NCBI GenBank assembly: GCA_024137785.1
Contig: JAHRHZ010000102.1
Span: 62,001-124,682, forward strand
Direction: 5' to 3'
Length of the DNA stretch: 62,682 nucleotides
From: Ginglymostoma cirratum
Lineage: Eukaryota
The position numbers are program-made. Positions 12,001 to 15,000 of this stretch are shown here, one piece after another. Positions within the stretch are counted from its first letter, which is position 1; each line of letters begins with the position of its first letter.

Positions 12001-15000
12001 CATGAAAAGGATTCCCACCAGGCACTGTTTGACCTTTGCTGCTGTTATTGTGAGGATCGTAAACCCTCATTCCTTGAGCAGGGGTCGACCCCAGGCCACT
12101 GTGATGAAAGTCGTGTACCTTTACCGCTGAGCCACCTGGGAACGAGCCGACTTGCATAATTTCTTAATAACACAGCTTCTGGCTTCTGCAGTTGCTCCTG
12201 CAAAATGTTCGCATCATTGAGTTTTTTACAACATGGAAATAGGACGATCATCCCAGTTTCCAGCACTTGGCCTTTTCGCATTGTGCACTCTCATTTTTCA
12301 AGCGTTCATTTCAATGTTATTTTCCCTGTAACATTTTAATCTCACGCATCACTGCCAATGAGACTGAAGTTTGAGATGGGTAAACTGTATTCTTGCCCAC
12401 TTGGGGAAGTGAACCTCAATTTCACTCACTTGGCTTCATTGTCCCATTTCAGACTTCAAAACTAGAATATGTTTACAGTAACAAAAGGAAGCAGTCGGCG
12501 GCTGCCCCGGGTTTGTGTTCCTCCCCCGTCACTCTGCAGTTTTCCTGCCTCACCTCGCTATTCCAGCCAAACATTGCTCATGCCAGATGCTCCTTCCCTT
12601 TGGCAGGGTCTTGCTCAAGTACATGGAAAGACAAACAAGAATGTGGAATTCCAAACACCTCTCTCTCCTGTGGGGGAAATGGTATGGTCATAATTCAGAT
12701 AATGTTTCAAGGGCTCCGTTTGATCCTGCAAGCAGCAGGTGATCAGAATGCACCACAGGCCTCCGTGAATCTCGAACTCATGACCTTTGGTTTATAAGAC
12801 CAGTCCTTCAACTACGGAGCCAGGGAGCCAAGTTTACAAAGAGGGTCTGATGTTCTGGAAATTACAAAGTAAAAGTTAATTGGAGACCTTGAGTATGATG
12901 AACCAAGATGGAACAAAACCGAAACAGAGTCGAGGGGCATCACATGCAGAAGGTTGGGAGAATGCAAGGCCGAATCAGACAGTGCCCTGAGTGACATAAA
13001 CAGATCTTTCCTGGTAGTGCAGTGATTACGATTCACTGACTTCAATGCCATATCCTGTTAATGGTTAACATTTACAGTAAAAAAATAAGAAATATTGACT
13101 GATCTCTAGAAGCGGAATTATGTCATTGACCAGTCAAAATCTCTTCACTCCATGTTAGAGTTCAACATCAGCAATGCCAGCTGAAACTGCCTGACGTGTA
13201 ATCGGTTTAAAACAAGAATAGAGGGGAGGTCATGAAAAGTGAAGGGCAATGGTAGTTTGCGAAAGTTGACTGTCGGCCGAGTTGGAGCCAGGCTCAATGT
13301 GGGTGCTGAAGACCAGTCTTTACTGTTTACCCCGGTATACAGATCACATTGGATCAATCACACAAGGACTCTTCTTTGTGTGTTGTCCTTTGCACATCAC
13401 AAAACGGTTCAGTGCTTCGAGGGGGTCGGAAACTTCTAATTTGGCAACTAACTCAGGTCAGTAGTACAAAAACTAAGCTGTGTTGGGACACTATTTAAAC
13501 GTGCCACCACTCATTGCAACGACCCAGAACTGTTCAGAAAGAGGAAGAACACCCATACAAAATCTTCGCTTTGAATGGATATCCCTGCAATGTCATTCAC
13601 AGGTGCCCACTAAATCGCAACACCAAGAGGACACATTATGCCCTAACACACTGGCCACACTGCCACACATCAAGAGCATATCAGAACTGACAATTCCTAT
13701 GACCACTAGGAATTACAGTTGCACACAAGCCCACAGCGATGCGACGACATACACTCACAAGGATTAAAGACCCCATGCCCACGACATGCAGAACAGACAT
13801 AGTTTACAAAATACCGTGCAACAACTGCCACAAACATTGTATCAGAGAGACAGGAAGGAAACTAGCCTTCGGAACACATGAACATCAGCTAGCAGCAAAA
13901 TGACATTTCGAAATTTCCCGAATATGAGTACACTCGGATAATGAAGGCCATCAGTTTAACTGGGACAACAGAACCATAGTCGCCCAAGCCAAGCATCGAC
14001 ACACATGGGAATTCCTAGACGCATGGTTCTTAATCCATAATGCAATCAGCAAATATATAGAATTGGACGCCATATACAACCCACACAGAACAGAACTGGA
14101 AATGACAGAACTCACCGTAATGGACAGGGCAGAATGTATCCCAAATGGAGTGGAACAACATCGCTTCATTGGAAGACGAACTCAGGATATTACCTAGCAT
14201 GGTGATAAAACGTCTGAACGAAAACAAGCCAGCTGGGCAAGCAAGTTCACAACCTCAACTTTACCGTTTAATGTGTGGCTCAGTGTCAGTCTTTGTGATA
14301 TTATACACACAATGTTCTACCCGCTTCTCCCGCCGTACTCAAGGTTCCCTGACAAAAGGCAGCTTAATGCGGAACACAAGCAGTTCCTCCTGACAGTGGG
14401 TACCATTGCCATGAGCTGAGATATGAAATAGACAGTGAGCTGAAGTAGCCCCTCACTCATGTTCCTCATTTACCTTTCAATTTCAATTTTCAATTTCCAA
14501 AACCCAGCGATCGAATCACTTCAGATGCTGGGAATCTGACAAAAACAGCGCTGGGCATATATTCCTCTTCAGAAGCATCTGTCAATTTGCAAGGGTAGAA
14601 AAACTGTCAACTTCATTCGAGAGAGGGAGGATACGACATTTCAATATTCCAATGCAAAGTCAGACGCTGTATCAATTACAGCACTGGCTCCACACGTCTT
14701 GCTGCAGCTTTCATCCTGTCGACTTGTGATGCATTCAGGGATACCGGCGGTAAAAGCATTCGCAAGCTGAATATCCAGCAAAATAATCGCCGTCACTGCT
14801 GCATTTCAATGTTCTCCACTTTGTGAAGCGGTGAATTTCACTGTCAATCGAAACATTTTCGTCTTTATATGCCTGCTTTACTGTCACCCGTTTCTCTGCC
14901 ACCCATTTCTCTGCTGGGACTTCCCATTTTTTTATTCACAGTCAATGCAAAGTTTGCCTCTAGTATTTTTTTTTAGGTTTATCTCCTATCAACTTAAAAC

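What the first reader, a model, noticed from the sequence alone, without database searches (positions are those of the whole stretch)
12070..12141. Duplicated tRNA bodies diverge much faster than their flanks
Seen (hand counts): the arm copies of Glu (12070-12141 vs 51112-51183) differ at ~21/72 sites, many of them transversions, while the adjacent 3' flank (11941-12060 vs ~51193-51310) differs at ~9/119. Thr differs at ~22/73; Pro-AGG and Ile are similarly scrambled. Trp (~5/72) and Pro-TGG (~10/90), whose B boxes are broken the same way in both arms, stay near background. Established: transcribed tRNA genes show elevated transcription-associated mutation rates, normally masked by selection. 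Inference: redundant copies that were still Pol III-active after the duplication mutated rapidly, while copies already silent did not, giving an internal natural experiment.
Basis: partly seen in the sequence, partly recalled or inferred. Interest (0 to 1): 0.72.

Follow-up and report, generated by a model that had tools for sequence, protein, structure and literature searches.

The report
Decayed tRNA copies diverging faster than flanks
Inside a large inverted duplication, several dead tRNA gene copies and the few bases just upstream of them have changed two to three times faster than the DNA around them, which fits the already known tendency of tRNA genes to mutate quickly, seen here without selection hiding it.

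Summary
The window is one inverted duplication (arms about 1416-17771 and 61840-45448). The Glu-like copies (12070-12141 / 51183-51112) differ at 21 of 72 sites (9 transitions, 12 transversions). The excess survives CpG masking (15/64 vs 42/531), composition adjustment (7.9 expected), transversion-only counting and local-window resampling, so the outer-to-inner gradient does not explain it.

Six of 17 tRNA-like candidates in the arms show such an excess: Glu, Thr, Pro-AGG, its head-to-head neighbour, Ile-TAT and Asn. Pooled, divergence peaks in the 20 nt upstream (43/92), stays high in the bodies (140/473) and decays within about 60 nt to the 14% reference. This is the shape published for transcription-associated mutagenesis at active tRNA loci.

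The excess occurs only where the B-box core was intact at duplication (6 of 9), never where both arms share a lesion (0 of 5).

Several results count against the reading. There is no strand bias, the mutation spectrum resembles background, two long trailers sit at background, n is small, activity is unmeasured, and donors elsewhere in the genome could not be searched.

Verdict: a real feature, a new instance of a known phenomenon, with the mechanism inferred.

The parts
1416..17771 (.). Arm A of the inverted duplication (weaker homology continues to about 23467)
   Evidence: blastn self against the minus strand: collinear HSPs at 91.3%, 87.6%, 83.6% and 81.2%, then 77% and 73.5%; the repeat finder; MAFFT alignment
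45448..61840 (.). Arm B of the inverted duplication (weaker homology continues inward to about 43267)
12070..12141 (-). Glu-like tRNA pseudogene, arm A (the finding)
   Evidence: A box 0 mismatches, B box 1 mismatch, spacing 43. 21/72 differences from its arm-B partner. No Rfam tRNA hit at E<=10. B-box core carries an arm-specific lesion.
51112..51183 (+). Glu-like tRNA pseudogene, arm B
   Evidence: Positional partner in the alignment. A box 0 mismatches; the B-box core has a different lesion from arm A. No Rfam tRNA hit.
12757..12829 (-). Thr-like pseudogene, arm A (ARAGORN at a relaxed threshold reads anticodon tat)
   Evidence: Rfam tRNA 22.6 bits; ARAGORN ps90; 21/73 differences; T4 terminator lost
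50341..50413 (+). Thr-like pseudogene, arm B
   Evidence: Rfam tRNA 34.1 bits, above the gathering score of 29; T4 at +9
10252..10342 (+). Pro-AGG-like pseudogene with an insertion, arm A (partner 52899-52988, minus strand)
   Evidence: A/B-box scan, ARAGORN ps85, custom model R1 17.5 bits; 28/90 differences
10136..10228 (-). Unassigned tRNA-like unit x53012, head-to-head with Pro-AGG-like and 23 nt away (partner 53012-53104, plus strand)
   Evidence: Arm B has B box 0 mismatches and A box 1 mismatch; 23/93 differences; the 20 intergenic columns counted differ at 12
16174..16268 (-). Ile-TAT-like pseudogene with an intron-like insert, arm A (partner 46932-47024, plus strand)
   Evidence: Boundaries read; 33/93 differences; B-box core intact in arm B only
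16998..17049 (+). Asn-like pseudogene, arm A, with a 23-nt deletion in the D-arm region (partner 46137-46214, minus strand)
   Evidence: 14/52 differences plus 23 gap columns; R1 23.7 bits
11093..11165 (+). Initiator-Met-like pseudogene; only its 3' half is diverged (partner 52080-52151, minus strand)
   Evidence: First seen by eye in a divergence peak, then found in both arms by model R1, which was not trained on it (12.7 and 12.3 bits); 16/72 differences, 1.59-fold
2530..2601 (-). Trp-like pseudogene at background divergence (partner 60659-60730, plus strand)
   Evidence: Rfam tRNA 29.7 and 22.5 bits; ARAGORN ps90/85 reads Trp cca; 5/72 differences; shared B-box core lesion
1759..1848 (-). 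Pro-TGG-like pseudogene with an insertion, at background divergence (partner 61409-61498, plus strand)
   Evidence: 8/89 differences plus 2 gap columns; shared B-box core lesion
14618..14690 (-). Weak tRNA-like unit x48492 at background divergence (partner 48492-48564, plus strand)
   Evidence: Rfam 21.5 bits in arm B; R1 27.3 bits in arm A; 10/73 differences; no recognisable B-box core in either arm
11580..11681 (+). Weak tRNA-like unit x11580 at background divergence (partner 51573-51674, minus strand)
   Evidence: A/B-box scan; 8/102 differences; shared core lesion
5845..5922 (+). Weak tRNA-like unit x5845 at background divergence (partner 57370-57448, minus strand)
   Evidence: A/B-box scan; 5/78 differences; B-box core intact in both arms but A box poor

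Best explanation
The window holds an inverted duplication of a degenerating tRNA gene cluster. When the arms began to diverge, some tRNA-derived units still had a working internal Pol III promoter (an intact B-box core) but were no longer protected by selection. At those units the mutation rate was locally raised. The raised zone ran from about 40-60 nt upstream, through the body, to about 40 nt downstream. The likely cause is the assembled or initiating Pol III machinery, that is, transcription-associated mutagenesis in the broad sense.

Both arm copies therefore decayed independently at roughly 2-3 times the surrounding rate, and nearly 5 times just upstream after Jukes-Cantor correction. 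Units whose promoter was already broken before the duplication drifted at the background rate.

Shown: the excess, its extent, its independence from CpG content, base composition and the gradient, and its restriction to units with an ancestrally intact B-box core.
Inferred: that promoter integrity meant Pol III occupancy, and that occupancy or transcription caused the extra mutations.
For: - Per-element excess against flanks 100-520 nt away: Glu 2.56-fold (p=1.3e-4), Thr 2.49-fold, Pro-AGG 2.52-fold, x53012 2.10-fold, Ile-TAT 2.47-fold (p=1.8e-6), Asn 1.79-fold (p=0.024, plus a 23-nt deletion).
- Each of these six lies in the top 0-1.9% of equal-length local windows. Six of the 11 elements defined without reference to divergence reach that level, binomial P=1.7e-8.
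- The excess is not CpG or composition. Class mismatch rates are 20.9% (CpG), 11.2% (other G/C) and 10.4% (A/T). The composition-scaled expectation is 7.9 against 21 observed for Glu. CpG-masked and transversion-only tests remain significant for Glu.
- Pooled profile of the six, each column counted once, against a reference of 790/5644 = 14.0%:
  - -20..-1: 43/92 = 46.7% (3.3-fold raw, 4.7-fold Jukes-Cantor)
  - -40..-21: 19/75
  - bodies: 140/473 = 29.6% (2.1-fold raw, 2.4-fold Jukes-Cantor)
  - +1..+20: 28/119
  - +21..+40: 26/120
  - +41..+60: 18/107
- The five slow elements are flat, with bodies at 36/414.
- The published profile for active tRNA loci has the same shape: inner 5' flank about 4-fold, inner 3' flank about 3-fold, outer flanks about 1.5-fold, peak 12-15 nt upstream (PMC6130373, Results read).
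- B-box core: intact in at least one arm, or recoverable position by position, for 6 of 6 fast elements. A shared lesion is present in Pro-TGG, Trp, x11580, x48492 and the innermost pair 23012/43650. Excess is seen in 6 of 9 ancestrally intact elements against 0 of 5 broken ones, one-sided Fisher p=0.028.
- Both arms carry their own promoter lesions. Mismatches are spread evenly within bodies, with no tract-like clustering.
- T4 runs lie within +3 to +16 of most units in at least one arm, which supports their origin as Pol III genes.
Against: - There is no strand asymmetry on the tRNA-sense strand (C/T 40 vs A/G 52, p=0.25; A/C 16 vs G/T 16). The test is unpolarised, so its power is low.
- The spectrum is close to background: ts:tv 92:67 against 846:825, p=0.08. 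Glu itself has 9 ts and 12 tv. The published signature is an excess of C>T and G>A.
- Glu-like has its first T4 at +62 in both arms, and x53012 at +92 in arm B and none within 150 nt in arm A. Their trailers are nevertheless at background, 12/140. This does not fit mutagenesis along the whole transcript.
- Three candidates with an intact B-box core show no significant excess: x5845 0.80-fold, c9693 1.34-fold, and the 20448/44390 pair 1.24-fold with 14 of 85 columns as indels.
- Part of the upstream peak comes from one shared 23-nt spacer with a C-run (12/20) and from indel-rich stretches where mismatches and gaps trade off.
- Grouping into fast and slow elements was done after seeing the data. 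The sample is 14-17 elements at one locus.
- All fast elements lie in the mid or inner part of the arms.
- Activity was never measured and the organism is unknown.
Confidence: 0.55

Rival explanations
1. Ectopic (non-allelic) gene conversion or template switching. One or both arm copies were partly overwritten by other tRNA genes or pseudogenes of the same family elsewhere in the genome, which creates short islands of high arm-to-arm divergence.
For: - tRNA families offer many short homologous donors (established knowledge, recalled).
- Arm partners of Glu, Thr, Pro-AGG and Ile are so different that blastn-short does not pair them.
- Three adjacent differences in the Glu D-arm change it to another common A-box form.
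- Donors outside this 62.7-kb window could not be searched.
Against: - No donor exists inside the window for any of the 14 queried copies, nor for the arm-A Glu D-arm variant at up to 3 mismatches.
- The strongest excess lies in the 20 nt upstream of the bodies, where unlinked paralogues share no homology.
- No copy looks freshly converted from a functional gene. Only Thr-like arm B passes the Rfam gathering score (34.1 bits), and both Glu copies score nothing.
- Both arms carry their own promoter lesions.
- There is no tract-like clustering within bodies.
Confidence: 0.15
2. A property of intact tRNA DNA that does not need transcription. Examples are TFIIIC or other protein binding that blocks repair, replication-fork pausing, open chromatin with more breaks, or hairpin-prone sequence. 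Intactness of the B box would then be only a marker of a more intact tRNA sequence.
For: - The excess covers the promoter and pre-initiation-complex footprint (upstream about 40 nt plus the body) rather than the predicted transcript. The Glu and x53012 trailers are at background.
- All substitution classes are raised, not only transitions.
- Ancestral B-box integrity and overall ancestral tRNA integrity cannot be separated with these data.
Against: - Trp-like still scores as a tRNA fold (Rfam 29.7 bits) yet is at background (5/72). Cloverleaf-forming sequence alone is therefore not enough.
- The upstream flank, which is not part of the cloverleaf, is the hottest part.
- This rival overlaps with the best explanation and differs only in whether RNA synthesis itself is needed.
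Confidence: 0.15
3. No local rate change. The peaks come from a mosaic history of the arms (arm-to-arm conversion resetting the flanks, duplication in steps, differential loss among former tandem tRNA copies) or from alignment error around indels.
For: - Background divergence is a mosaic: about 8% in the outer part, 10-15% in the middle, 15-17% in the inner part, 23-27% innermost.
- One of the top seven 72-column peaks (10866-10930) is a plain indel misalignment.
- The Asn and Ile regions need many gaps.
- An older third copy lacks the Asn unit altogether.
Against: - The peaks are 70-150 nt wide and sit on tRNA-like units in 5 of the top 7 windows.
- Outer-arm background is Poisson-like (mean 5.2, variance 5.4 per 60 columns), with no sign of recent conversion patches.
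- Glu has no gap column at all, and local resampling still places it in the top 1.6%.
- Six separate loci would each need their own coincidence.
Confidence: 0.06
4. CpG decay or return to equilibrium composition of formerly GC- and CpG-rich functional genes, with no change in the underlying mutation process.
For: The fast bodies are somewhat GC-richer (50-59%) than the window (44%). Several Glu differences are CG in one arm against TG or CA in the other.
Against: - CpG sites differ only 2-fold more than others, and G/C sites about the same as A/T.
- The composition-scaled expectation for Glu is 7.9 against 21 observed.
- CpG-masked and transversion-only tests remain significant.
Confidence: 0.03

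Closest known systems
Transcription-associated mutagenesis at active cytosolic tRNA loci (Thornlow et al. 2018, PMC6130373; Results sections read)
   Same: The shape of the excess matches: highest in the 20 nt upstream, raised in the 3' flank, fading within tens of nt, robust to CpG removal, and absent at units judged inactive.
   Different: - There the gene body is conserved by selection. Here the bodies are unconstrained pseudogenes and carry the excess themselves (2.1-fold raw).
- There the signature is a C>T / G>A excess tied to measured chromatin and expression. Here the spectrum is near background, no strand bias is seen, and activity is only inferred from B-box integrity.
- That work did not use pseudogenes or duplicates. 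The words 'pseudogene', 'duplicat' and 'gene conversion' occur 0 times in its main text. The follow-up paper removed pseudogenes and segmental duplications (passages).
Concerted evolution / intergenic conversion among dispersed tRNA genes (recalled from the yeast literature; no paper read here)
   Same: It would also give short islands of sequence change confined to tRNA units.
   Different: Conversion should stop at the edge of homology and make a copy look more like a family member. Here the flank upstream is hottest and both copies look more decayed.
Large palindromes / inverted duplications with arm-to-arm gene conversion (recalled)
   Same: Two long inverted arms around a spacer, with a patchy level of identity along the arms.
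   Different: The arms are 8-17% diverged with Poisson-like background. This gives no evidence of ongoing homogenisation, so the arms behave as two independent lineages, which is what makes the comparison possible.

Membership tests
tRNA gene (Rfam RF00005) | Covariance-model score at or above the gathering score (29 bits) | tested here: not met
   Neither Glu-like copy is reported at E<=10, even when only 171 nt are searched. Neither is found by ARAGORN at default settings. In the arms only Thr-like B (34.1 bits) and Trp-like A (29.7 bits) pass.
tRNA-derived Pol III unit (pseudogene) | A box and B box at tRNA-like spacing within a unit of about 72 nt | tested here: met
   Glu-like arm A has A box 0 mismatches, B box 1 mismatch and spacing 43. 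Both arms have A box 0 mismatches. The consensus motifs used are recalled general knowledge.
tRNA-derived Pol III unit (pseudogene) | T-run terminator shortly downstream | tested here: not met
   For Glu-like the first T4 is at +62 in both arms. Most other units have one at +3 to +16 in at least one arm.
TAM-type hypermutable tRNA locus (Thornlow 2018 pattern) | Inner 5' flank the most divergent part, several-fold above reference | tested here: met
   For the six fast elements pooled, 43/92 against a reference of 790/5644, 3.3-fold. For Glu alone it is weak, 4/20.
TAM-type hypermutable tRNA locus (Thornlow 2018 pattern) | Raised 3' flank that decays within tens of nt | tested here: met
   28/119, 26/120, 18/107, then baseline. 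The rise is 1.7-fold rather than the published ~3-fold. Glu alone is 3/20 and 1/20.
TAM-type hypermutable tRNA locus (Thornlow 2018 pattern) | Excess of C>T / G>A transitions, with coding-strand signature | tested here: inconclusive
   ts:tv 92:67 against 846:825, p=0.08. Sense-strand C/T 40 against A/G 52, p=0.25. The test is unpolarised because no outgroup exists.
TAM-type hypermutable tRNA locus (Thornlow 2018 pattern) | Excess scales with measured transcription or occupancy | not testable with these tools
   There are no expression or ChIP data and the organism is unknown. The only proxy is ancestral B-box core integrity: 6 of 9 intact against 0 of 5 broken show excess, p=0.028.
Ectopic conversion among tRNA paralogues | An identifiable donor matching the changed tract | tested here: inconclusive
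   None in the window. The rest of the genome is not available in any collection offered.
Ectopic conversion among tRNA paralogues | Change confined to the region of homology (the body) | tested here: not met
   The excess is strongest upstream of the body.
CpG-decay island | Excess disappears when CpG-derived sites are masked | tested here: not met
   Glu 15/64 against 42/531 after masking. CpG sites differ only 2-fold more often.

The most novel reading that the evidence does not exclude
Unconstrained tRNA genes destroy themselves. As long as the internal promoter can still load the Pol III machinery, the unit and about 40 nt upstream mutate several-fold faster, in all substitution classes and with indels. 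This continues until the promoter itself is hit, after which the rate falls to background.

The footprint here covers the upstream spacer plus the body but not the long T4-less trailers. This would point to the assembled or initiating complex, rather than elongation, as the mutagenic state. It would also give a built-in mechanism for the fast birth-and-death turnover of tRNA gene families.
Probability: 0.25. Interest if true: 0.6.

Novelty: new member of a known kind. Interest (0 to 1): 0.4.

Why it matters
Elevated mutation at tRNA loci has so far been read from flanks, because selection hides it in the gene body. The main studies removed pseudogenes and duplicated segments (passages seen).

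Paired, unconstrained copies inside one inverted duplication show the rate within the body directly: about 2.4-fold after correction, and about 4.7-fold just upstream. They also allow promoter integrity at the time of duplication to be read off shared versus private lesions.

If the pattern holds across many duplicated clusters, it would give a selection-free estimate of Pol III-associated mutagenesis and its footprint. It would also help to explain the rapid turnover of tRNA genes. As a single locus it is an illustration, not a proof.

Tried and rejected
- ARAGORN at a 70% threshold with introns gave 223 calls, which is noise, and was not used. Thresholds of 95-85% gave 5-19 calls and served only as supporting labels.
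- Pfam on the 10 longest stop-to-stop ORFs (of 30 that are >=120 aa) gave 0 families, so there is no clue to the organism and no coding constraint.
- blastn-short of 14 arm copies against the window found no third copy usable as donor or outgroup.
- An older third copy of arm 16600-17300 in the spacer lacks the Asn unit, so it could not polarise changes there.
- Alignment A2 misplaced the 3' half of Glu and was discarded. Model R1 was built from A1 with a hand-written cloverleaf.
- R1 found 36 matches at E<=10. The new arm candidates c4071 and c9693, and the motif-only candidates m4846, m12393 and m59282, are all at background (ratios 0.86-1.34).
- Tests that came out null:
  - strand asymmetry;
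  - clustering of mismatches within bodies (only Asn has a long identical run, P=0.007);
  - indel-event density, 8 in 883 columns against 34 in 5916.
- Explanations rejected: CpG decay and base composition, and the outer-to-inner gradient as the cause of the peaks.
- The peak at 10866-10930 is an indel misalignment, and the peak at 15970-16039 has no tRNA-like feature I could see.
- I do not take the window for human: CpG observed/expected is 0.58 and there is no 7SL/Alu-type Rfam match. No N is present. No spliced gene model arose.
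Full report
WHAT THE WINDOW IS

The 62,682-base window contains no N, has 44% G+C and a CpG observed/expected ratio of 0.58. It has no stop-to-stop ORF above 212 aa, and the 10 longest of the 30 ORFs >=120 aa match no Pfam family. I do not take it for human, because of the CpG ratio and because no 7SL/Alu-type Rfam match appears.

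The whole window is one inverted duplication. Collinear minus-strand HSPs join:
- 1416-4805 to 61840-58452 (91.3%);
- 4840-12424 to 58453-50815 (87.6%);
- 12530-16984 to 50643-46227 (83.6%);
- 17111-17771 to 46090-45448 (81.2%).

Weaker pieces continue to 23467/43267 at 77% and 73.5%. A MAFFT global alignment of the arms gives 14268 matches, 2049 mismatches and 578 gap columns.

The window is full of decayed tRNA-like units:
- ARAGORN at default settings finds 3.
- Rfam's tRNA model reports 2 at the gathering threshold. At the more permissive E-value setting, 4 matches reach the gathering score and 2 more fall below it.
- A simple A-box/B-box scan finds 29 candidates.
- A home-made covariance model (R1) finds 36 matches at E<=10.

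THE OBSERVATION

| Element | Differences | Note |
|---|---|---|
| Glu-like 12070-12141 vs 51183-51112 | 21/72 | 9 ts, 12 tv, no gaps |
| Thr-like | 21/73 | plus 1 gap column |
| Pro-AGG-like | 28/90 | |
| Ile-TAT-like | 33/93 | after I corrected its boundaries |
| Trp-like | 5/72 | |
| Pro-TGG-like | 8/89 | plus 2 gap columns |

ARAGORN at relaxed thresholds agrees for Trp and reads the arm-A 'Thr' copy as tat.

Both Glu copies are too decayed to score as tRNA, even in 171-nt searches. What marks them as tRNA-derived is an A box with 0 mismatches, a B box with 1-2 mismatches at the right spacing, and the 72-nt unit.

IS IT MORE THAN CHANCE, CpG OR GRADIENT?

Away from tRNA-like units (+-100 nt removed), background divergence rises from 7.4-10% (A 1416-9416) through 10-15% to 15-17% (A 14416-17790). 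In the outer part it is Poisson-like, with mean 5.2 and variance 5.4 per 60 columns. The gradient is therefore real, and all tests were made locally.

For Glu:
- Against flanks 100-520 nt away: 21/72 vs 65/571, 2.56-fold, p=1.3e-4.
- With CpG-derived sites masked (including TG opposite CA): 15/64 vs 42/531, p=3.8e-4.
- Transversions only: 12/72 vs 29/571, p=8.7e-4.

In this DNA, CpG sites differ only twice as often as other sites (363/1740 vs 1260/11285 for other G/C and 1719/16491 for A/T). After composition and local scaling, the expected count for Glu is 7.9 against 21 observed, p=1.9e-5. Of 3298 equal-length windows within +-2.5 kb that avoid tRNA-like units, 1.6% reach the Glu value.

In these tests I left out the non-homologous first 120 and last 130 alignment columns, and I removed the elements, with margins of 20 to 100 nt depending on the test, from the flank, reference and resampling sets.

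WHICH ELEMENTS SHOW IT?

Seventeen tRNA-like candidates lie in the arms:
- 11 came from Rfam at E<=10 or the A/B-box scan, without regard to divergence.
- 3 are motif-only candidates from the same scan.
- 2 are weak R1 hits.
- 1 is the initiator-Met-like unit, which I first saw by eye in a peak. R1 then found it in both arms without having been trained on it.

A further motif-scan hit at 17015-17090 overlaps the Asn-like T arm and was not counted separately.

| Group | Elements and ratio to far flank |
|---|---|
| Clear excess (6) | Glu 2.56, Pro-AGG 2.52, Thr 2.49, Ile-TAT 2.47, x53012 2.10, Asn 1.79 (plus a 23-nt deletion) |
| Borderline (1) | iMet-like 1.59, p=0.049; only its 3' half is diverged |
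| Background (10) | Pro-TGG 1.21, Trp 0.84, x5845 0.80, x11580 0.65, x48492 1.00, c9693 1.34, c4071 1.14, m4846 1.34, m12393 0.98, m59282 0.86 |

Working in the other direction, 5 of the seven most divergent 72-column windows inside the arms sit on these units. One is an indel misalignment (10866-10930), and one (15970-16039) has no tRNA-like feature that I could see.

EXTENT OF THE EXCESS

The six fast elements were oriented by tRNA sense, and every column was counted once. The reference is 790/5644 = 14.0%.

| Region | Differences |
|---|---|
| -80..-61 | 14/80 |
| -60..-41 | 14/67 |
| -40..-21 | 19/75 |
| -20..-1 | 43/92 = 46.7% |
| bodies | 140/473 = 29.6% |
| +1..+20 | 28/119 |
| +21..+40 | 26/120 |
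| +41..+60 | 18/107 |
| beyond | baseline |

Jukes-Cantor-corrected ratios are 4.7 for the inner 5' flank, 2.4 for the bodies and 1.8 for the inner 3' flank. The five slow elements are flat, with bodies at 36/414.

There are caveats. Twelve of the 43 upstream mismatches come from the single 23-nt spacer between the head-to-head x53012 and Pro-AGG units, which holds a C-run in arm A. The Thr, Ile and Asn upstream regions contain indels, so mismatches and gaps trade off there. Glu alone has 4/20 upstream.

This shape is what Thornlow et al. describe for active tRNA loci. They report the inner 5' flank about 4 times, the inner 3' flank about 3 times and the outer flanks about 1.5 times the reference, with a peak 12-15 nt upstream that is robust to CpG removal (PMC6130373, Results read). 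In their data the gene body is conserved. Here it is not.

PROMOTER STATE AT DUPLICATION

A lesion shared by both arms predates the duplication. A consensus base kept in either arm shows that the ancestor had it.

The B-box core (recalled consensus GTTCRA) is intact in at least one arm for x53012, Thr, Ile-TAT and Asn. It is recoverable position by position for Glu and Pro-AGG, whose two arms carry different lesions.

Both arms share a core lesion in Trp, Pro-TGG and x11580. x48492 has no recognisable core. The innermost pair 23012/43650 also shares a core lesion and shows no excess (17/73 vs 130/490).

Three units with an intact core show no significant excess:
- x5845, which has a poor A box;
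- c9693, at 1.34-fold;
- the innermost pair 20448/44390, at 13/71 vs 95/641 (1.24-fold), although 14 of its 85 body columns are indels.

Overall, the excess is seen in 6 of 9 ancestrally intact units and 0 of 5 broken ones (one-sided Fisher p=0.028).

RESULTS THAT DO NOT FIT A SIMPLE TRANSCRIPTION READING

- On the tRNA-sense strand, C/T pairs number 40 and A/G pairs 52 (p=0.25). A/C and G/T are 16 each. The test is unpolarised because no outgroup exists.
- The ts:tv ratio is 92:67 in fast bodies against 846:825 in background (p=0.08). All classes are therefore raised, whereas the published signature is a C>T / G>A excess.
- Glu has no T4 until +62 in either arm. x53012 has its first T4 at +92 in arm B and none within the 150 nt searched in arm A. 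Their trailers nevertheless differ at only 12/140. This fits a footprint of the promoter-bound or initiating complex better than mutagenesis along the transcript.
- Conversely, Thr-like arm A has lost the T4 that arm B keeps at +9, and its 3' flank is 20/60 diverged.
- Indel-event density near fast units is not significantly raised (8 in 883 columns vs 34 in 5916).

RIVAL EXPLANATIONS

Ectopic conversion from other tRNA genes is the main rival and cannot be excluded, because only this window could be searched. Four results count against it:
- No donor in the window for 14 queried copies, nor for the arm-A Glu D-arm variant.
- The hottest part is upstream, where unlinked paralogues share no homology.
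- No copy looks freshly converted, and both arms have private promoter lesions.
- There are no tract-like clusters of mismatches.

A transcription-independent effect of bound factors or open chromatin is hard to separate from the best explanation, and I rate it about as likely as conversion. CpG decay, base composition, the gradient and alignment error were tested and do not account for the peaks.

COMPARISON WITH WHAT IS KNOWN, AND NOVELTY

Hypermutation at tRNA loci is established. I read the Results of PMC6130373, and saw only search listings, abstracts and passages for PMC13010820, PMC13034040 and PMC6961574.

Three full-text searches and term look-ups in four papers found no study that uses duplicated, unconstrained tRNA copies this way. 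PMC6130373 does not contain 'pseudogene', 'duplicat' or 'gene conversion'. PMC6961574 states that pseudogenes and segmental duplications were removed. These searches cover only the held library, and supplements were closed.

I therefore file the finding as a new instance of a known kind. It is a neat single-locus natural experiment whose result is what the known mechanism predicts, with some departures in spectrum and footprint that would be worth testing genome-wide.

LIMITS

- The organism is unknown.
- There is no outgroup and no expression data.
- Isotype labels and the A/B-box consensus are recalled knowledge.
- E-values from model R1 are rough, and its seeds match it by construction.

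Noticed in passing
window 1416-23467 and 43267-61840: Arm-to-arm identity falls stepwise from the outer ends inward: about 92% in the outer part, 84-88% in the middle, 81-83% in the inner part, and 73-77% innermost. The outer boundary is sharp at 1416/61840. The outer parts look younger, either through outward growth of the inverted repeat or through a later large arm-to-arm conversion.
   Followed up: partly
window 33900-34450 (minus strand) vs 16600-17300 and 45900-46620: An older third copy in the spacer matches arm 16600-16860 and 17060-17300. It lacks the ~200 nt that carry the Asn-like unit and its upstream region, so this is either an insertion in the arm lineage or a deletion in the spacer copy.
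   Followed up: partly
window 58370-58500; counterpart about 4763-4880: A hairpin-like element gives sub-threshold Rfam miRNA-precursor matches on both strands (mir-607 41.7 bits against a gathering score of 94; MIR6462). The arm-A counterpart is interrupted by 37 gap columns. It may be a small foldback or MITE-like repeat.
   Followed up: no
window 12697-12756 and 50414-50475: The Thr-like copy in arm A has lost the T4 run that arm B keeps at +9. The 60 nt downstream differ at 20 of 60, unlike the downstream flanks of the other units.
   Followed up: partly
whole arm alignment: CpG sites differ only about 2-fold more than other sites, transitions and transversions are about equal (846:825), and CpG observed/expected is 0.58. 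CpG hypermutability therefore looks weak in this genome.
   Followed up: partly
window 10229-10251 / 52989-53011: Two tRNA-like units sit head-to-head only 23 nt apart. Arm A has a C-run in the spacer, and this is the most divergent short stretch of the arms: 12 of the 20 columns counted.
   Followed up: partly
window 18000-45000 (spacer): There are many further decayed tRNA-like units outside the arms, for example 38347-38438 (Rfam 40.5 bits), 26652-26734 (33.5 bits), 32375-32447, 28837-28910, 35069-35140, 34727-34799 and 29836-29907. A three-member family lies at 20448, 44390 and 33263.
   Followed up: no
window 6998-7182 vs 11405-11590 (and 51666-51848 vs 56095-56276): A ~185-nt repeat is present twice in each arm, in inverted orientation (83% identity). 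It contains a TGACGTCA motif just upstream of the weak unit x11580.
   Followed up: no
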